A stretch of DNA of 64,000 nucleotides. Source: Eledone cirrhosa (taxonomy: Eukaryota). Location: positions 73,160,001 through 73,224,000 of the forward strand of contig OZ024742.1 of the NCBI GenBank assembly GCA_964016885.1. The letters run 5' to 3'. This document shows, one piece after another, positions 830-56,623 of this stretch (position 1 is its first letter; each line of letters begins with the position of its first letter). Under the pieces are notes generated by a model. The model worked only from the letters and a program-made list of their open reading frames with translations. It did not search any database and was not told the DNA's origin. Both the position numbers and the translations under genes were made by a program.

Positions 830-3659
830 AGACATGACCTCATTGCCAGAGTGTTCAGACTGAAACTGGCTAAACTCATGGCTTTAATCCAAAGGGTCAG
901 GTATTTGGGGCTGTAAAATGTGACATGTTCACCGTCGAATGGCAAAAACGAGGACTGCCACATGCTCACACTTTGATTTGGTTAGCTGATAAAATCAATT
1001 TAAATGCCATAGACAGCTTCATTTCGGCTGAAATCCCTAACCCAGCAACTGACCAGGAATTACATGACATTGTCAAAGCTAACATGGTCCGTGTGCGTCG
1101 GGTCCTAATGAGCATCACACATGTCTGAAAGGGGGGGGGGGGGGGTCGTGCAGTAAGGGATACCCCAAAAAATTTGTTGACGAGACTCAGACTGGTGGCG
1201 ATGGGTACCCCTGTACAGGCGGAGAAGGCCCGAGAACGGTGGCTTCACCACAACAGTAAAGGGAGGTCAAGTCGACAATAGATGGGTGGTCCCTTACTGC
1301 CGGCTTCTCTTGAAGATGTTCAACGCCCACATCAACATTAAGTTTTGCAACTCCGTCAAGTCTATAAAATACATATGCAAATATGTAAATAAGGGCTCTG
1401 ATGAGGTCACAGAATACCTGGCGGGGCGGTACATCAGTAGCAATGAAGCTTTTTGGCGCCTATTTGGTTTCCCCCTACACCAACGGCACCCCGCCATTGT
1501 ACAGCTTGCGGTACATTTGGAAAATGGGCAAAGGGTTTACTTTACGGACCAAACCGCCGCCAAGTTGGCCACCAATCCGAAAGAGACCACTCTGACGGGT
1601 TTCTTCAAACTTTGCCAGTTCGATACATTTGCGCAAACAATTGTGTACCCCCAGCTTCCATCCTACTTTATATGGTTGAAAAACACTTGGTTGTGAAGAA
1701 AGTCAGGTCAGGCTGTTGAAAGACATCCTGGTGTAAAATTTGACAGCGGTCTTGGAAGGGTTTACACTGTGCCCCCAAGTCAGCATGAGCGCTTTCATCT
1801 CCGCCTTCTTCTGCATGAAGTTGTAGGCCCACAAATTTTAGCAGGACCTCAAAACTGTTGATAGAGAAATATGTGACATGTACTGGGAAGCCTGCTTTAA
1901 GCGTGGTCTTTTGGAAGATGATTCGCAATGGGATTCCACTTTAGCAGAGGGTGCTTTGTTGAAATCACCTAAAGGTCTACAGGAACTCTTTGCCATTTTG
2001 CTTCAAAAGTGTGAATTGGGTGATCCCAAATCTTTATGGGTCAAGTACAAAGACTTTATGTCTGAGGATTTCCTGTGCCTCGCTCATCTGCAGTATCCTT
2101 CAGTGGAAGTTGCTTACAGCGGCATTATCTATAACAGGGCACTCATTGATATCGAGGACGCCCTCCTCGACATGCGTGAGAGTGAGTTGGCGACATGGCT
2201 TGCCGTCAGCCGTCAGAGAGGAAGCTAACACGTTGGCCCCGGATGTGTTGCGGGAAACAGCATATGACATTGAATCTCTTTCCCAATACTTAGAGGAAAA
2301 TGAGCCCAAACGTCTGTCGGACCAAAGGTTGGCCTATTTAACTATCATTGACGCAGTTCAAAATCAGACAGGGGTATTTACTTTCTCGCTGCTCCTGGGG
2401 GTACCGGAAAAACTTTTGTAACAAAATTGATTGCCGCTAAGATTCGTCAGGAGAAAAAAATTGCGTTGTCCGTTGCATCGTCCGGGATCACTGCTACTTT
2501 GCTGCTGGGAGGCAGGACAACACATTCAACCTTTACACTCCCCTTGGATTTAGTAAAAACTGAGACACCAACATGCAATATCAGCAAGAGTTCACACAAA
2601 GCTATGGTTCTCAAAAAATGTTGCCTCATTGTTTGGGATGAATGCACAATGGCACACAAGGGTGCCCTTGAGGCATTGGACGAGTCCTTGAAAGACATTA
2701 GGGATTCTACGGCTCCTATGGGTCGCGTAACCCTTCTGCTATCAGGGGATTTTCGGCAAACGCTGCCTGTCATCCCCAAAGGGACAAGAGCTGATGAAGT
2801 GCGTGCCTGCTTTAAGTCGTCCACGTTGTGGCCCCAGGTGAAGACTTTGTACCTGAGCACAATATGCGTGCTCATTTGCATGGTGACAACATGTCTGCAG
2901 CACAGAACATTTTAGCACTGGTGAGGGCAAGGTCCCTGCGGATGACAAGGACGGCATAGCAATCGACTCCCGGTGGAACATTGTGAGCAGCCCTTCTGAC
3001 CTTTGGGAGGCAGTTTTTTCTAATGTCTCATTTAACTTTAAAAACCTCAATTGGCTCAGCGAAAGAGCCATCCTTGCTCCGAAAAATAATTAATTTTATT
3101 AACGAGCAGCTGATTGACAAAATTCCCGGTAAAGAGCACATCTTCAAATTTATCGACCGGACGTCAGACCCCGTCGATATTGTTAATTATCCGGTTGAGT
3201 TATTAAATTCCCTTGAGCTTCCAGGGCTCCCACCTCACATTCTTAAGCTTAGGGTTGGCTGTCTCATTATGCTAATAAGGAACTTGCGCCCACCAAAGCA
3301 GTGCAACGGTACTCGCATGGTCGTCAAGTCAATGACGTCCCACTTGATTAAGGCCACCATTGTAACAGGGTGCGGGAGAGGGGAGAATGTTTTCATTCCA
3401 AAGATGAACCTTTTCCCCTCGGCGTCACATCTCGTTCGATTTCCGGCGATCCCAATTCCCGATGAGACCATGTTTTGCCATGTCCATTAACAAGTCACAA
3501 GGGCAAACATTGTCGATGGCAGGCATCCATTTGGGGGAGCCATGCTTCTCCCATGGCCAACTTTATGTTGCCTGTTCCCATGTAGGGAACAGGAATGTAC
3601 TTTTTGCTTACACTCCTCAAGGGATGACACGCAATATCGTCTACAAAGAGGTGCTATAG
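830..3659 (+). pseudogene. Helitron RepHel (HUH Rep + PIF1-family SF1 helicase) pseudogene with many frameshifts and stops
   Basis: EWQKRGLPHAH (HUH motif), KYICKYVNKG (catalytic Tyr motif), LAVHLENGQRVYF, frameshifted APGGTGKT (Walker A), WDECTM, GDFRQTLPV, CNGTR, FAMSINKSQGQT and HGQLYVACS spread over ORFs 925-3659. Confidence 0.92.
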
Positions 3660-5273: not shown

Positions 5274-7160
5274 TTAATTGTAAGTTGTGATGTTGCTGTT
5301 CCACTCATATTTTCTATTTAATTTTGGTTTTAATTCTTTTATGCTTACTGCCTCTGTAATTTGCCTAAACATTGCGTCTTTCTTGTGTGTGGATTCTATT
5401 TTTATTTCTATGCTCTCTAATTTACCCCTGTGTTCTATCTTAGCATGTTGGTAGAGCACAGATGATTCTTTACTATCTTGGAGGTCTCGCCAGTGTTCAT
5501 TTATTCGTTCCCCTATACTACGAGCTGTCTCACCTATGTACACTATATTTTTGTTTCTACATTGTCCTTCAGTACATCTTATGCTATATACTACATTTCT
5601 AGTTTTACAGTTAATATGGGGGCTTATTTTACAGGTTATACATTTCTTATCTATACATGAGGGTCTTTGGAACGGGTATGTCTTGCTAATAAGTGTTTTT
5701 ACGGAGGTACCAGGTCTTTCTACTATCTTAATATTGAGATTATGTTTCTTTAGGGCCCTTCTAAATTTGTAGGCTAGTTCGCCTCTAGGGGTTGTATTGA
5801 TGAACATTACACTCTGGTATTTATTGCTATCATACCATGAGTTTATTCTATTGGCCTTGTTCTTAGTTCTTTCTATTCTATTCCAAAATTTGCTCCTATA
5901 CAAGGGGCAGGTCCCATTTATGTCATTATTTACTATTTTTTCCCATTTGGTTCTGGCTCCTTTATACACTCTGATTCTATCTCTCTGATTGTAGCCAGAG
6001 AACTGCATACGGTGGATGAAGTGTTGTATGTGTCTCTCTAGTTCTTCGGGGTTGCACATGCGGGACACATTTCTCATCACCCGTACCAAATCCGCAATCA
6101 GTATGTTGATTTTGGTATGGTCCGAAATGGCCGAGTTTCGGTGGATCAGATGTTTGGAAGTCATGGGTTTGGCATAATGGGAATGGAGGATTTGTTTTTG
6201 GTTGTTAATAGTATCTAACCAGAGCTCTGTGTCTAGTACAGGTAATCGATGGTTGGGGTGTCTACTTGGGTAGTCTATAGTAACTCTAATGCTCTGGTGG
6301 ATGGAGTTTGCTATTTGCTGGATGCTTTCCATTGTGTTTTTCTCTGGTTCCTGACTGTTCTTTAGTGGGGGTGTCTTAACTACGATGTTTATATCATCTA
6401 CGTAGCGGGAGTACATTATCAGGGTTAAGCTGTCTTCTAATTGTTCATTAAGTTTTTGTTTAAGTCTACTGTACCACCATACCATGAACAAGTTAGCTAT
6501 GTCGCCTGCAATGCTAACACCAATGGCTGCTCCTTCCTCTTGAGCATATGTTTTACCATTAAATTTGAACATATGTTCCTTAAGGGTTAATTTTATGCTG
6601 GCCCCTACCGCATGTGCAATCCTTTTTTTCAGTTCATCGTGGTTTTCGGGTGTCCGTATGGCTCTGGTCCACCCGTTCCATCTATCTGTGTGGGTTTTCT
6701 TGGCCATTGAGGTAATGGTAGGTGGTCTGCCTCTTGCTGGTCTTGTAGGGCACAGGTTGCTAAGGTCATAAGTGTCTAGGTAACTATTACTATGGGTAAG
6801 CTTAAGTAGAAGTCCCAGCTCACTGGTATCAATCCCACGGAACTCAACCTTGCTCTCGCTGATCATTTCGACGCATTTCTCTACAGCAAAATCCACGCCA
6901 ATAGATGGATACAGGGACACAACATCCATACTGCCTATTATGCAGTTTGTTAGGTCCCCAGATCGGTTACCCGCGCCGATTCTGCTGAGGAGGTCCTCCG
7001 TGCTGTCACACACATCTGGGGACATCTCAATGATGGGGCGTATGATCAGGGAGAGGAAGTAGGACAGTCTGTAGTTACTAGCAATGTTAGCCCCACAGAC
7101 TGGCCGTGTTGGTGGTCCCGCGACAGGGTCCCAGCCCGTTTTATGGTCTTTTCGAAACAT
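5274..7160 (-). CDS. Penelope-like reverse transcriptase + GIY-YIG endonuclease, N-terminally truncated, uninterrupted 628 aa
   Basis: RKDHK..PTRPV, GSMDVVSLYPSI, QEEGAAIG, YSRYVDD, LPVLD, HYAKPM, linker CxxxxCxxC, VVYSIRC..YIGETARSIGERINEH, H..EH, RQITEA..LN. Confidence 0.92.
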   Translation of the reverse strand: MFRKDHKTGWDPVAGPPTRPVCGANIASNYRLSYFLSLIIRPIIEMSPDVCDSTEDLLSRIGAGNRSGDLTNCIIGSMDVVSLYPSIGVDFAVEKCVEMISESKVEFRGIDTSELGLLLKLTHSNSYLDTYDLSNLCPTRPARGRPPTITSMAKKTHTDRWNGWTRAIRTPENHDELKKRIAHAVGASIKLTLKEHMFKFNGKTYAQEEGAAIGVSIAGDIANLFMVWWYSRLKQKLNEQLEDSLTLIMYSRYVDDINIVVKTPPLKNSQEPEKNTMESIQQIANSIHQSIRVTIDYPSRHPNHRLPVLDTELWLDTINNQKQILHSHYAKPMTSKHLIHRNSAISDHTKINILIADLVRVMRNVSRMCNPEELERHIQHFIHRMQFSGYNQRDRIRVYKGARTKWEKIVNNDINGTCPLYRSKFWNRIERTKNKANRINSWYDSNKYQSVMFINTTPRGELAYKFRRALKKHNLNIKIVERPGTSVKTLISKTYPFQRPSCIDKKCITCKISPHINCKTRNVVYSIRCTEGQCRNKNIVYIGETARSIGERINEHWRDLQDSKESSVLYQHAKIEHRGKLESIEIKIESTHKKDAMFRQITEAVSIKELKPKLNRKYEWNSNITTYN

Positions 7161-8271
7161 CGTAGTTAAGACACCCCCACTAAAGAACAGTCAGGAACCA
7201 GAGAAAAACACAATGGAAAGCATCCAGCAAATAGCAAACTCCATCCACCAGAGCATTAGAGTTACTATAGACTACCCAAGTAGACACCCCAATCATCGAT
7301 TACCTGTACTAGACACAGAGCTCTGGTTAGATACTATTAACAACCAAAAACAAATCCTCCATTCCCATTATGCCAAACCCATGACTTCCAAACATCTGAT
7401 CCACCGAAACTCGGCCATTTCGGACCATACCAAAATCAACATACTGATTGCGGATTTGGTACGGGTGATGAGAAATGTGTCCCGCATGTGCAACCCCGAA
7501 GAACTAGAGAGACACATACAACACTTCATCCACCGTATGCAGTTCTCTGGCTACAATCAGAGAGATAGAATCAGAGTGTATAAAGGAGCCAGAACCAAAT
7601 GGGAAAAAATGGTAAATAATGACATAAATGGGACCTGCCCCTTGTATAGGAGCAAATTTTGGAATAGAATAGAAAGAACTAAGAACAAGGCCAATAGAAT
7701 AAACTCATGGTATGATAGCAATAAATACCAGAGTGTAATGTTCATCAATACAACCCCTAGAGGCGAACTAGCCTACAAATTTAGAAGGGCCCTAAAGAAA
7801 CATAATCTCAATATTAAGATAGTAGAAAGACCTGGTACCTCCGTAAAAACACTTATTAGCAAGACATACCCGTTCCAAAGACCCTCATGTATAGATAAGA
7901 AATGTATAACCTGTAAAATAAGCCCCCATATTAACTGTAAAACTAGAAATGTAGTATATAGCATAAGATGTACTGAAGGACAATGTAGAAACAAAAATAT
8001 AGTGTACATAGGTGAGACAGCTCGTAGTATAGGGGAACGAATAAATGAACACTGGCGAGACCTCCAAGATAGTAAAGAATCATCTGTGCTCTACCAACAT
8101 GCTAAGATAGAACACAGGGGTAAATTAGAGAGCATAGAAATAAAAATAGAATCCACACACAAGAAAGACGCAATGTTTAGGCAAATTACAGAGGCAGTAA
8201 GCATAAAAGAATTAAAACCAAAATTAAATAGAAAATATGAGTGGAACAGCAACATCACAACTTACAATTAA
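7084..8271 (+). CDS. Inverted copy of the Penelope thumb + GIY-YIG region, lacking the YVDD RT core; first ~24 aa come from antisense spacer sequence
   Basis: Identical to the C-terminal ~370 aa of 5274-7160 except one I/M difference. Confidence 0.7.
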   Translation: MLAPQTGRVGGPATGSQPVLWSFRNIVVKTPPLKNSQEPEKNTMESIQQIANSIHQSIRVTIDYPSRHPNHRLPVLDTELWLDTINNQKQILHSHYAKPMTSKHLIHRNSAISDHTKINILIADLVRVMRNVSRMCNPEELERHIQHFIHRMQFSGYNQRDRIRVYKGARTKWEKMVNNDINGTCPLYRSKFWNRIERTKNKANRINSWYDSNKYQSVMFINTTPRGELAYKFRRALKKHNLNIKIVERPGTSVKTLISKTYPFQRPSCIDKKCITCKISPHINCKTRNVVYSIRCTEGQCRNKNIVYIGETARSIGERINEHWRDLQDSKESSVLYQHAKIEHRGKLESIEIKIESTHKKDAMFRQITEAVSIKELKPKLNRKYEWNSNITTYN

Positions 8272-52487: not shown

Positions 52488-53367
52488 CCGTATATACTCA
52501 TGTATAGGTCGCCTCGGCAGATAGGTTGCATACCCACTTTTCATTTAACAAATAGGCTATTTGCCATTGACTCGCAGATAGATCGCACTGAAATTTGGGC
52601 CGTCAAACTACTATTTTTTATGATAATTGAAACTAATAATCTGTTAGCTTTCCATTACTTCGCCGTTGCGACATATACTCCAAACCATGTTTTATTTATA
52701 AAATAAACATTAACGTCATCGAAATCTCGTCAATTCGAAATTACTGCGAGATAAAGCCTTTAAGCGCGAAAATTAACTCTTAATATAGTGAAACAACTTG
52801 AAATAACACCTGTTTTTTAATGTTGAAAGTATAACAGATTTTTTGCGTATCAACTAGGCTTCCTAAAGTAGCGAATACCGACTTTGAAGGTTTTACATGC
52901 GACGATATTCGAAATGAAAAAGAAACACAAGATAATATTAGTGATTTATCTTCAAATGAATCAGACGTATTTATTTCTGACGATGATAGTTACTTTGAAA
53001 GTGAAAGCGAAGATCTGACGGACACCATTGAAAATATTACAGCAATGTGGTTGAAAGACACAACACCAATACATGTTCACACCTGTTAATGAACTTGTAT
53101 ATTGGGAACACTCTGTTATGTAAATTTACACTTTACATTGTGTAAGAGTACATTGCAAATATTATTTTGACTGGTGAAAAGGTTTTATACATTTTTTCAA
53201 TGAAAATATTTGCCTGGAATGTAGAGAAAGACTAAAACCTTGTACTGATTATATCTGCATTTTTAATGAATTCACCTGTTCGGAAAACTGCTAGAATTGA
53301 TGGAAGTCAACATCTAGGTCATTATTGAATTTTTTTGCAACAAATCTAACAGGTAAAGCAGATAAAG

Positions 53368-54879
53368 GGCGATATCCAATTTTAGCGGCCTAAATGCCGC
53401 TTACTTGCTGTAGTTGCTGCTTACTTCAATGTATGAGGCTATTCCAACAAATTTACATTCCCCTTTTTTTAGCCGTTAAAAGAAATATAGATTTATTTAT
53501 TGTTTTTTTTTTTGCGATTTATTTGCCACTGGGGCATAGATTTCTTTATTTGCCCCTTTTTTGTTTGTTTTTTGCAATTTATTAGCCTTTTGGGGTCACA
53601 CACACCCCCGTAGAAAGTGTGCGACCTTTCTGCCAGGGAGCACAGAGAGAGGGGGGTGCTCCCTTCTTCTCTTACCTGTACAAGCCGATATAGAGAGATG
53701 GCCCACTTACACGGGCCATTATTGCTACTTTCACCCATCTTTCATGGAATTGGCTGGGACTGAGTGCCTTTTTCTCCACCTTGATCCTTCTTTCGAAGTG
53801 GTATCGGAAGAAGAGGACCATTTGTTGGCCGGCGACATATCCCCACAGTTTCCTCGTTGCAAACGCATCTGGGACATTTCTTTTCCAAGGAGTTTCCATC
53901 CCGGAATCCGTGTCTGTAGAGCCTTTCCCGAACGGGCAGGGCCCCTCGGTATAATAGTAAGTATTAGTGGTTGTAATAAAAATGCAATCAAAATGTAATG
54001 AATACCTTCACTGATTTCTTTCCTTATATTATCAACAGAAGTTGGTATGTCACCCAAAGTTCGCTTTGTATGTTCCCGAATAGCAGTGAATTTTGATAAA
54101 ACTGTTTCTAATTCCTTCTCCACAGTAAGACAAATATCCATGTGTAGTTGAAGAGGATAAGTATGAACAAACAGTCATTTAAATTTACAGATGGACAGAT
54201 GTGGTATTTGGCAGGGTTTGAGATATATAGAAAAATAATTTACAAAAAAAGAAAATAATAATAAAGAATTATTATAATTTTTTTAAAGATTTATATCTTT
54301 TTGGACTACACATGGATATGGAAAGGCTCTACAGACACGGATTCCGGGACGGAAACCCCTTGGAAAAGAAATGTCCCAGATGCGTTTGCAATGAGGAAAC
54401 TGTGGGGATATGTCGCCAGCCAACAAATGGTCCTCTTCTTCCAATACCACTTCGAAAGAAGGATCAAGGTGGAGAAAAAGGCACTCAGTCCCAGCCAATT
54501 CCATGAAAGATGGGTGAAAGTAGCAATAATGGCCCGTGTAAGTGGGCCATCTCTCTATATCGGCTTGTACAGGTAAGAGAAGAAGGGAGCACCCCCCTCT
54601 CTCTGTGCTCCCTGGCAGAAAGGTCGCACACTTTCTACGGGGGTGTGTGTGACCCCAAAAGGCTAATAAATTGCAAAAAACAAACAAAAAAGGGGCAAAT
54701 AAAGAAATCTATGCCCCAGTGGCAAATAAATCGCAAAAAAAAAACAATAAATAAATCTATATTTCTTTTAACGGCTAAAAAAAGTGGAATGTAAATTTGT
54801 TGGAATAGCCTCATACATTGAAGTAAGCAACAACTACAGCAAGTAAGCGGCATTTAGGCCGCTAAAATTGGATATCGCC
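53368..54879. mobile_element. Non-autonomous long-TIR element (Merlin-like; MULE possible) with ~560-bp arms and an 8-bp TSD
   Basis: Arms 53368-53928 and 54320-54879 begin GGCGATATCC; AGATAAAG duplicated at 53360-53367 and 54880-54887. Confidence 0.82.
54006..54141 (-). pseudogene. RMND5: Captured first coding exon resembling RMND5A/B (Gid2, CTLH/GID E3 ligase subunit)
   Basis: MDICLTVEKELETVLSKFTAIREH..IRKEISE resembles the recalled metazoan RMND5 N-terminus (MDxCxxVERELEKVLxKF); ends at a donor-like AAG|GTATT. Confidence 0.65.
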
Positions 54880-55009
54880 AGATAAAGTTTAAATTTTTGT
54901 GTTTATCCATAAAGTTATTACTTTTACACCTGCTAATTAATAGTTTTTTCATTTCTTCATCTGTAACTGTGCATTCGTTATAATAGTCATTCAATTCATC
55001 TTCACATTC

Positions 55010-56217
55010 TTAAATATCATCTCCCTTATCACTCTCTGCATTTTCTGTCTTTTCACCAACTAAATCCTCATATAACACATCATCTTCAGTCCCGTCCATC
55101 GCATTTGATATGCCACATTTTTTGAAAGCCTTCATTATTAGCTCTGCAGAGATACTTTCCCAAGCCTCCTTCACCCACTCCACCACTAATCTCAAGCCAG
55201 GTCTTTTCAATGATCCAACTTTGGTAATTTCTTTTTCACCTGATATCATCCAAGAAGTCCAGAGTTTACGGATATAAGTCTTGAAGGGCTTATTTACTGC
55301 CACATCAAGGGGTTGTAAGACTGAGGTGTCTCATTTTACAATCCTTCAGCTTAGCCTTTACAGACTCACAGCAGTGAGATCGAAACATATCCCAAACTAA
55401 CAAACTTTGTGGCTTCAGTAATGCCTCTGGCCTTTTCATCCACACTTCATCAAGCCATAACTTTGTTAAGTTCTCGTCCATCCAGCCCTTCGGATGTACC
55501 TTCACAATCACATCGCTTGGAAAATTCTCTTTTGGCATAATTTTCTTTTTGAAAATAACCATAGGGCGAAGTTTTTTTTCCATCAGCCTGGCATGCTAGA
55601 ACAACAGTAAAATGTTGTTTTTCATGACCTGTGGTTTTGACTAACAGTTTTGTTACCTACACTATCCACAGTTGTGTTGTCTGGCATGTCAAAGTACATG
55701 GGTGTTTCATCCATGTTGGCTATATTCTCAATGGCAAAATCAAACATTTTCTTTCCTTTAACACAAATTTTACAAAATTGTGTACTTTGTTATCAATATC
55801 TTTTGGCAGCTATTGTGCAATATGTGTCTTTTGGCGAAGAGTCAGTCCAAACCTATTCATAAACCTGGTGCACCACCCTGCTGATGATTTAAATTGGGAT
55901 AAGTGGTACTTTGGTGCAAGTTGAAGGGCTTTCGTTCTTTTAGAAAGTCTTGTAACAATGTGTCCATTTTCCCTGATATCTAAAACCCAATCATTTAGCT
56001 CTTTTTCAAGATCTTGATATGGTGATACTCCAAACCTTGCTGCTCTCTTTGATTTAGGCATTTCTCCCAGCTTGTCTTTTTGTTTCCTCAAACCTCTCAC
56101 CACCTTTTCTGACACTCCAAACTCCCTTTCTGCTGATCTATTTCCAAATTCTTCAGCATAACCAACCACCTTTAACTTGAAAACTGTTTGATAACTTTTT
56201 CTCTTACCGGAATTCAT
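55010..56217 (-). pseudogene. pogo transposase pseudogene (Brinker-like HTH + CENP-B HTH + DDE_1)
   Basis: RKSYQTVFKLKVV..GNRSAEREFGVSEK, FKSSAGWCTRFMNRFGL, NMDETP, KGWMDE, LVWDMFRSH, VAVNKPFK, AFKKCGISNAMDGTEDD; stops and frameshifts. Confidence 0.92.
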
Positions 56218-56623
56218 ATTTCTCAGTGAATTATAAAAAAAATTTCAACTATCAACTTTTCTCAATTGCTACAATGTGTGTTCATAGCAATGTTAAGACA
56301 ATGAAATCACATTTTAAATACCGGGTATGCATTTCTATGGATTTTAATGACAGATGGTTTGGTCAGAGAGAAAAAAACGTAAACACTACAAAGTTTTAGT
56401 AAAAAATTTAAAATCAAGAAATATATGTATAAGAAGGTAGATATATGAAATTATTATGTTAAATAATAAAAAATATTAACAAAGTTATTTTTATAAATAC
56501 CCATCGTTGATTAAGTCTATGAAAAATCATTGGTCAGTCTGATGTCGATCGGATAGGTCGCACCCCAAAAATTTATACTTATTTATCATTTAAAAAGTGC
56601 GACCTATACGCGAGTATATACGG

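What the first reader, a model, noticed from the sequence alone, without database searches (positions are those of the whole stretch)
53368..54879. Gene-capturing (Pack-type) long-TIR element carrying an RMND5-like host exon
Seen: ~560-bp inverted arms starting GGCGATATCC, an exact 8-bp TSD (AGATAAAG), and a 391-bp spacer with an ATG-initiated 136-nt reading frame (54141-54006, minus strand) ending in a GT donor. Knowledge: GG-starting TIRs with an 8-9-bp TSD typify Merlin, and the peptide resembles my recollection of the RMND5/Gid2 N-terminus. Inference: a non-autonomous DNA transposon captured genomic (unspliced) host DNA including the exon-intron boundary. Pack-type capture is best known from plant MULEs; I know of no described Merlin or cephalopod case. 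The exon could splice into neighbouring genes, or the transcribed foldback could produce small RNAs near an RMND5-matching loop.
Basis: partly seen in the sequence, partly recalled or inferred. Interest (0 to 1): 0.8.

Follow-up and report, generated by a model that had tools for sequence, protein, structure and literature searches.

The report
Merlin transposon spreading a stolen exon
A Merlin jumping-gene family carries the first exon of the host gene RMND5 at more than 100 places in this genome, and in copies that ride inside a second transposon the stolen exon is likely spliced onto that transposon's transposase message.

Summary
Real, and richer than reported. The element (53368-54879) has 98.6%-identical arms and an exact 8-bp duplication, inserted in a pogo relic. 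Its centre matches the host RMND5 5'UTR, exon 1 and intron start (87%); the host locus was found. Merlin is confirmed: 34 of 46 paired copies have exact 8-bp TSDs, none 9-10 bp, and 14 of 14 near-full IS1595-type transposase copies are followed by RMND5 sequence. Corrections: the cargo sits in the transposase-coding parent, fused to a Tx1-type LINE 3' end; the 'arms' are that parent's right end duplicated; typical copies carry the exon in both arms, and this copy lost one. At least 114 exon copies, one capture. A sister foldback is nested in 13 of 13 copies of a hAT family, and one RNA-like run holds a contig deduced to join the captured donor to the hAT transposase exon. No transcript was shown for the window's own copy; small RNAs are untested. 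A new variant of Pack-TIR; no Merlin case turned up in my literature searches. The scan noted a gene-carrying foldback of another family in another genome.

The parts
53360..53367 (.). left 8-bp target-site duplication AGATAAAG
   Evidence: single copy at empty sites in 10 of 11 pogo paralogues
53368..53587 (.). left Merlin terminus and subterminal repeats (inverted copy of the parent's right end; inner repeats resemble the LINE tail)
   Evidence: 77-78% to the right end of parent L110; 119 exact 32-nt ends in the genome, reversed control 0
53584..53951 (-). 5'-truncated, internally deleted Tx1-type LINE 3' end (zf-RVT region, end of ORF2, 3'UTR) forming most of the left arm
   Evidence: 79-83% to free LINE copies; zf-RVT E=1.6e-9 in parent copy L046, RVT_1 plus zf-RVT in free copy L133; Tx1/L1-clade label is recalled, not from a call
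53958..54005 (-). captured start of RMND5 intron 1 with GT donor at 54005-54004
   Evidence: matches host L031:5472-5519
54006..54141 (-). captured RMND5 coding exon 1 (136 nt, 45 codons, phase 1; six substitutions against the host, all non-synonymous)
54142..54292 (-). captured RMND5 sequence upstream of the ATG (5'UTR), with a ~15-nt deletion against the host
   Evidence: host L031:5166-5335
54293..54307 (-). remnant of the Merlin sequence that follows the transposase stop in the parent
   Evidence: match to parent L110 runs on to window 54307
54308..54319 (+). 12-nt stub of the second RMND5 copy; the rest (~200 nt) is deleted in this copy
   Evidence: canonical centre junction in 21 fetched loci, window-type junction only in the window's own copy
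54320..54664 (+). LINE 3' end in the right arm
   Evidence: 78-82% to free LINE copies
54661..54879 (.). right Merlin subterminal repeats and terminus
54880..54887 (.). right 8-bp target-site duplication AGATAAAG
54888..56244 (-). decayed pogo/Tigger-type transposase gene whose 3' part the element interrupts (continues left of 53360)
   Evidence: DDE_1 E=1e-10 and 8e-11, HTH_Tnp_Tc5 E=2e-12; empty-site paralogues

Best explanation
This is a non-autonomous foldback copy of a Merlin DNA transposon family that carries the 5'UTR, first coding exon and intron start of the host gene RMND5 beside a LINE 3' end; the piece was likely captured once by a transposase-coding parent, likely by microhomology-guided template switching during DNA repair, and then spread by cut-and-paste. 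Shown: parents read short TIR - IS1595-type transposase - RMND5 piece (sense) - truncated LINE - right end; foldbacks hold the right end twice, exon included; the window's copy lacks ~200 nt of one arm; copies have different 8-bp TSDs; one foldback sits near the 5' end of a hAT element in 13 of 13 hAT copies, all with the same Merlin target site. Inferred: the order parent -> foldback -> deletion; the capture route; that the hAT spread the nested copy piggyback; that the captured donor is spliced to the hAT transposase exon, where it would form a 31-codon upstream ORF stopping 6 nt before the transposase ATG. The window's own copy is most likely inert.
For: Host source: element 591-925 matches L031:5166-5519 at 87% with no TIR at the host; downstream exons 2-3, CTLH and RING exons follow on the same strand; a spliced contig joins host exon 1 to later exons. 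One capture: 85 of 85 distinct copies aligned were grouped in three types, and each type's majority has the same derived letter at the diagnostic host positions it covers; majority-to-host 4.2%, copy-to-majority median 0.7-1.4%. Copy number: 115 protein matches of 142 candidates, one being the host, plus 20 hAT-nested deletion-type copies not on that list; element-allele depth 478-799 against 5-10 for single-copy contigs in runs X1-X3. Merlin: 34 of 46 paired elements with exact 8-bp TSD, 40 of 46 within one mismatch, none exact at 6, 7, 9 or 10; DDE_Tnp_IS1595 E=4e-15 inside an element with both ends; 14 of 14 near-full transposase copies followed by RMND5 sequence, 13 of 14 by exon sequence. 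Junction: GACAT shared by host intron and LINE at the 3' breakpoint. hAT nesting; intact 883-aa hAT ORF with Dimer_Tnp_hAT in one copy; differing hAT TSDs. Splice: two contigs of run X4 have loose ends exactly behind the donor; their mixed consensus is reproduced 30 of 30 letters by host exon 2 plus the hAT exon start; the derived pattern hit 7 genomic sites, reversed control 0, all AG acceptors with the nested foldback upstream; the host contig runs unbroken through its junction while the element-type contig stops at the donor.
Against: No cargo-free parent of this subfamily was found among the 40 scored of 190 candidates, so the capture route is not shown; sense exon plus intact LINE 3' end fits an RNA chimera as well. 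No intact transposase: first stop at 72-283 codons in the 11 loci where the start was located. The splice rests on one run whose kind is not on record, on contigs, and on a deduction from a mixed consensus; its depth is unknown and no DNA run was laid beside it. Unspliced element-type depth in X4 (31.5) could be DNA carry-over. 6 of 46 paired elements have no TSD. The tree of cargo pieces included non-homologous flanks and gives only weak support for the LINE-long parents lying nearest the host. 4 of 13 hAT copies showed no sense donor within 1.6 kb of the acceptor.
Confidence: 0.8

Rival explanations
1. Same family history, but the cargo arose through RNA: a Tx1-type LINE inserting into the Merlin switched template to unspliced RMND5 pre-mRNA during reverse transcription, giving an exon-1/LINE chimera that the Merlin then spread.
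For: RMND5 piece and LINE are directly joined, both sense, LINE 5'-truncated with its natural 3' end present; first exons in sense orientation are typical of human mRNA/LINE-1 chimeras (PMC11838501, passages); the RMND5 intron does not resume after the LINE.
Against: The junction lies 84 nt inside the intron, not at a splice site; no convincing TSD around the block (only a 9-of-10 match in A/T-rich DNA); only 1 of 9 core differences from the host is A>G, so no editing signature; the hAT-nested type has the same RMND5 end but no LINE.
Confidence: 0.3
2. The hAT-directed splice is transcriptional noise or an assembly artefact of one run; the cargo is a neutral passenger everywhere.
For: One run, contigs only; six of six coding changes are non-synonymous and the nested type has a 45-nt deletion, i.e. 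no sign of constraint; the hAT has its own GT-AG intron just upstream of the same acceptor; 13 of 13 can follow from one founder insertion.
Against: The joined ends are a canonical donor and acceptor 515-546 nt apart in 9 of 13 hAT copies, which an artefact would not pick; chance co-location of an RMND5 exon upstream of all 7 pattern hits is negligible. This argues for a real splice, not for function.
Confidence: 0.45
3. The element is a MULE/FB-type foldback (Pack-MULE like Ssk-FB4), the Merlin transposase being a bystander.
For: Long arms (560-790 nt) exceed the 24-462 bp given for Merlin TIRs (PMC8101967, passages) and resemble FB4's ~700 bp (PMC8277862 section 9).
Against: 0 of 46 exact TSDs at 9 or 10 bp, 34 of 46 at 8 bp; Merlin transposase lies between the same ends; the long arms are duplicated internal sequence.
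Confidence: 0.02
4. The cargo came from another species' RMND5 by horizontal transfer or introgression of the Merlin.
For: All copies differ from the host at the same sites (4.2%) and no cargo-free parent is present.
Against: A functional orthologue would differ mostly at synonymous sites; here 0 of 6 are synonymous, and two library proteins carry the host residues at 6 of 6 and 5 of 6 of these sites.
Confidence: 0.07

Closest known systems
Pack-TIRs of animals, multicopy class (Tan et al. 2021, PMC8277862; abstract, sections 9 and 10, passages and supplement search seen)
   Same: TIR element holding a short unspliced host fragment with exon and intron, copies with distinct TSDs, chimeric transcripts with neighbours.
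   Different: Their 370 cases are mostly hAT and TcMariner and mostly single-copy; 'Merlin' has 0 occurrences in the main text and one column header in 12 supplement files; no octopus or mollusc mention in the main text. Here >100 exon copies, cargo in the transposase-coding parent, cargo fused to a LINE, exon in both arms.
Ssk-FB4 foldback of Drosophila melanogaster (PMC8277862 section 9)
   Same: Long-armed foldback with captured host gene sequence, spread by transposition.
   Different: 9-10-bp TSD and MULE assignment, four copies, near-complete gene in the loop; here 8-bp TSD, Merlin, one exon, usually in the stem.
Merlin superfamily (IS1595/IS1016-related; PMC8101967, passages seen)
   Same: GG termini, 8-bp TSD, DDE_Tnp_IS1595 transposase of about 320-330 codons; abundant in an octopod by that paper.
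   Different: That paper's only 'captur' hit is a reference title; arms here exceed its TIR range because the right end is duplicated.
mRNA/LINE-1 and U6/LINE-1 chimeras (PMC11838501 passages; PMC4476161 search listing only)
   Same: Sense first exon joined to a 5'-truncated LINE.
   Different: Junction inside the intron, no clear TSD, and the block lies inside a DNA transposon.
Pack-MULEs of rice (PMC5861414, PMC4858842; search listings only) and GingerRoot elements with gene fragments (PMC6839031; search listing only)
   Same: DNA transposons carrying host gene fragments; link to small RNAs is recalled knowledge.
   Different: Plants, other superfamilies.

Membership tests
Merlin | TIRs with terminal 5'-GG | tested here: met
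   definition from PMC8101967
Merlin | 8- or 9-bp TSD | tested here: met
   34 of 46 exact at 8 bp, 40 of 46 within one mismatch; empty sites
Merlin | DDE_Tnp_IS1595 transposase between the same ends | tested here: met
   PF12762 E=3.8e-15 and weak Zn_ribbon_IS1595 in L041, an element with both ends and a TSD within one mismatch; also L106, L107, L110, L113
Merlin | TIR length 24-462 bp | tested here: inconclusive
   parent types L046 and L110 have ~65-125-nt TIRs; the window's 561-nt arms exceed the range because they include LINE sequence
Merlin | intact autonomous partner | tested here: inconclusive
   all 11 loci with a located start stop at 72-283 codons; 150 of 190 candidates were not scored
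Pack-TIR | internal non-TE sequence with an identifiable parental locus | tested here: met
Pack-TIR | multiple copies of one structure with distinct TSDs | tested here: met
Pack-TIR | microhomology at capture breakpoints | tested here: inconclusive
   5 nt shared at the 3' junction; 5' junction is A/T-rich and ambiguous
Pack-TIR | chimeric transcription with neighbours (frequent, not defining) | tested here: inconclusive
   one deduced spliced contig to a hAT exon for sister copies; nothing for the window's copy
MULE / FB4-type foldback | 9-10-bp TSD | tested here: not met
   0 of 46 exact at 9 or 10 bp
MULE / FB4-type foldback | MULE transposase partner | not tested
   no MULE profile search was run
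LINE/RNA chimera | cellular RNA part in sense, 5' of a LINE with natural 3' end | tested here: met
LINE/RNA chimera | TSD around the whole block | tested here: inconclusive
   no empty parent; 9-of-10 match in A/T-rich DNA only
RMND5/Gid2 | N-terminal helix followed by LisH/CTLH and RING exons in one gene | tested here: met
   RMND5A best PDB hit; tblastn exons 1-3; CTLH hits 9-11 kb downstream; zf-RING_UBOX E=7e-5, under the cut-off

The most novel reading that the evidence does not exclude
A host exon passed through three kinds of mobile element and was put to work: RMND5 exon 1, first fused to a LINE, was carried by a Merlin, folded into both arms, and now supplies, with the Merlin's upstream region, the 5' end and a regulatory upstream ORF of a recently active hAT transposase mRNA (13 of 13 copies carry it), while at least 22 exon-in-stem foldbacks could make double-stranded RNA against the conserved host E3-ligase message.
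Probability: 0.2. Interest if true: 0.85.

Novelty: new variant of a known kind. Interest (0 to 1): 0.62.

Why it matters
It extends gene capture by DNA transposons to the Merlin superfamily (no case found in searches) and gives an animal example with more than 100 exon copies, where described multicopy cases have a handful. The intermediates survive in one genome (coding parent, foldback, deletion derivative, piggyback in a hAT), so the origin of long-armed foldbacks and the fate of cargo can be read directly. It makes two questions testable in an animal: whether captured exons in a hairpin stem silence the parental gene, and whether a captured splice donor can re-wire another transposon's expression. 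It also warns annotators of about 130 false RMND5 exon-1 hits.

Tried and rejected
No RNA holder listed for the element; this is no evidence on expression. The search for homologous proteins with the 45-aa peptide found nothing; Pfam does not recognise the peptide. The raw mixed consensus had no genomic match, as expected of a mix of two contigs. No cover of the transposase 3' half in X4 is not used as evidence. The tree (37 of 86 rows, non-homologous flanks included) does not order the events. Within-element arm distance (mean 1.35%) is only slightly below between-element distance (1.81%, 12 elements): no case for arm homogenisation. L112 was considered as an empty parent and rejected: it keeps 58 nt of RMND5 and joins to the LINE tail at a 4-nt microhomology. 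L177, RMND5+LINE without ends, was considered as a free retro-chimera and read as a broken copy. A processed pseudogene is excluded by the intron sequence and the 8-bp TSDs. No earlier finding matched by sequence or held the word RMND5.

Full report
Observation. The element spans 53368-54879. Its arms are 561 and 560 nt, 98.6% identical, begin GGCGATATCC and are flanked by AGATAAAG on both sides. It interrupts the 3' part of a decayed pogo-type element; 10 of 11 paralogues of that element show one AGATAAAG with both flanks contiguous, so the 8-bp duplication is a true TSD. The minus-strand frame from 54141 gives 45 codons plus one base before a GT.

The cargo is RMND5. The peptide's best match among solved structures is human RMND5A 1-43 (E=0.031), and 65 library proteins match it, nearly all from an N-terminal or first Met. 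A CTLH profile search found exons 9-11 kb downstream of one 87%-identical peptide match. That locus (G000:C5, L031) has no element ends and matches window 53958-54292 at 87%, covering upstream sequence, exon 1 and 48 nt of intron. Exons 2 and 3 and a RING exon follow on the same strand, and run X4 holds a 1435-nt contig joining exon 1 to three later exons.

It is a family from one capture. The peptide search gave 115 matches of 142 candidates, one of them the host; 20 further deletion-type copies were not on that list. Element-allele depth in three DNA-like runs of one sample is 478-799 against 5-10 for single-copy contigs. Among 85 distinct copies aligned, all three structural types have the same majority letters against the host; majority-to-host distance is 4.2%, copy-to-majority 0.7-1.4%. 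The six coding changes are all non-synonymous and the host residues are those of two library proteins, which fits decay on the element before amplification; with six changes the lack of synonymous ones is not significant. In 69 of 85 copies the donor is intact and 64 of 85 keep an open phase-1 exon.

It is Merlin. Of 46 elements with both ends in the fetched loci, 34 have an exact 8-bp TSD, 40 within one mismatch, none an exact 6, 7, 9 or 10. An IS1595 profile search hit beside exon copies; a DNA search with that transposase gave 14 near-full copies (two in one element), all followed by RMND5 sequence in sense, 13 by exon sequence. None of the 11 loci with a located start is intact. A sister subfamily at about 70% has its own GG ends, 8-bp TSDs and no cargo. 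These features match the definition in PMC8101967 (passages).

Anatomy and history. The fullest parents (L110, L046, L163) read: short TIR, transposase, 75 nt, RMND5 piece to intron position +84, a 5'-truncated LINE, right end. The LINE has 1929 first-look candidates in the genome, RVT_1 and zf-RVT domains and its natural 3' end inside the element; the Tx1 label is recalled. About 370 of the window's 560 arm bases are this LINE. Most non-coding copies hold the right end twice, with ~790-nt arms, two outward-facing exons and a ~135-nt loop; 22 distinct such exon pairs were counted among fetched loci, and one folds with both exons paired in a long stem. The window's copy keeps 12 nt of the second exon copy and is the only fetched copy with that junction. 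The order parent, foldback, deletion is inferred; the tree gives only weak support. At the RMND5/LINE junction both sources share GACAT. DNA template switching, as proposed for Pack-TIRs (PMC8277862, section 9), and an RNA-level LINE chimera (PMC11838501, passages) both fit; I put them at about 55 and 30 in 100, as no cargo-free parent was found.

Use of the donor. No holder was on record as RNA, but X4 holds the spliced host contig and is read here as an RNA run. Laid on a transposase-bearing copy, X4 showed two contigs with loose ends exactly behind the donor, as a mixed consensus with agreement 0.53. Removing the host exon-2 start left a pattern with 7 genomic hits and none for the reversed control. 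All 7 are the acceptor of a hAT transposase exon, and all 7 have a sister Merlin foldback with the RMND5 exon upstream, six with a sense copy. Host exon 2 plus the hAT exon start reproduce the consensus at 30 of 30 letters. The host contig is unbroken at its junction and the element-type contig ends at the donor, which points to an element-type, not host, exon in the chimera. All 13 hAT copies found carry the insertion at one site; 9 of 13 have a sense donor 515-546 nt from the acceptor, where the exon would give 31 codons and a stop 6 nt before the transposase ATG. One copy has an intact 883-aa ORF, and hAT TSDs differ between copies while the Merlin TSD does not. The splice rests on one run, contigs only, depth unknown, with no DNA run laid beside it; it concerns sister copies, not the window's. 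Function is not shown.

Comparison and verdict. Tan et al. 2021 describe 370 Pack-TIRs in 100 animal genomes, mostly hAT and TcMariner, few multicopy; Merlin appears nowhere in the main text and only as a column header in 12 supplement files. Searches listed no Merlin with host cargo and no RMND5-carrying transposon; most were seen as listings only, and subscription papers, Repbase and Dfam are outside the library. A recent octopus repeat annotation lists recently active Merlin, hAT and L1-Tx1 families and has no 'captur' in its main text (PMC13282606, passages); the species of this genome was not tested. Verdict: a member of Merlin, working as a Pack-TIR; a new variant by superfamily, copy number, LINE fusion, exon-in-stem arrangement and the likely splice into a carrier hAT. 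Interest 0.62.

Noticed in passing
window 22831-46933: 24-kb satellite of a 31-32-nt unit, about 768 copies, 85% matches.
   Followed up: no
window 1181-3490 and 5274-8271: Broken Helitron-like Rep/helicase frames, and a Penelope-like RT/endonuclease frame with a tandemly repeated 3' part; labels are from recalled motifs, not from a profile search.
   Followed up: no
L161:1600-5373 (G000:C11): A family member that is a whole-element foldback with two complete inverted transposase copies, each followed by RMND5 and LINE pieces.
   Followed up: partly
G000:C28:102763179/102765190, C1:45540714/45542164, C4:282847499/282848908, C3:234730707/234731669: Further inverted pairs of Merlin transposase matches 1-2 kb apart: foldback formation may be general among Merlin families of this genome.
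   Followed up: no
L086:1163-1780: A family MITE inserted into the RMND5 exon of another family member, with its own 8-bp TSD.
   Followed up: partly
L195, L198, L199, L201, L202, L210, L217, L218, L223: A 1.39-kb non-autonomous hAT derivative that keeps only the left arm of the nested Merlin, with 8-bp TSDs; L210, L217 and L218 share one TSD and so look like segmental duplicates.
   Followed up: partly
L182:78-1383: The hAT-nested foldback has a different outer TIR, lacks transposase and LINE, and joins the Merlin upstream region directly to the RMND5 5'UTR on both sides: a candidate bidirectional promoter arrangement.
   Followed up: partly
L170, L174, L169, L175: Sister Merlin subfamily (about 70% nt) with 321- and 338-residue stop-to-stop frames and own TIRs; no cargo.
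   Followed up: partly
L031:5520-5810: The captured piece ends inside an intronic SINE of the host; parent elements keep more of that SINE's head than the host does today.
   Followed up: partly
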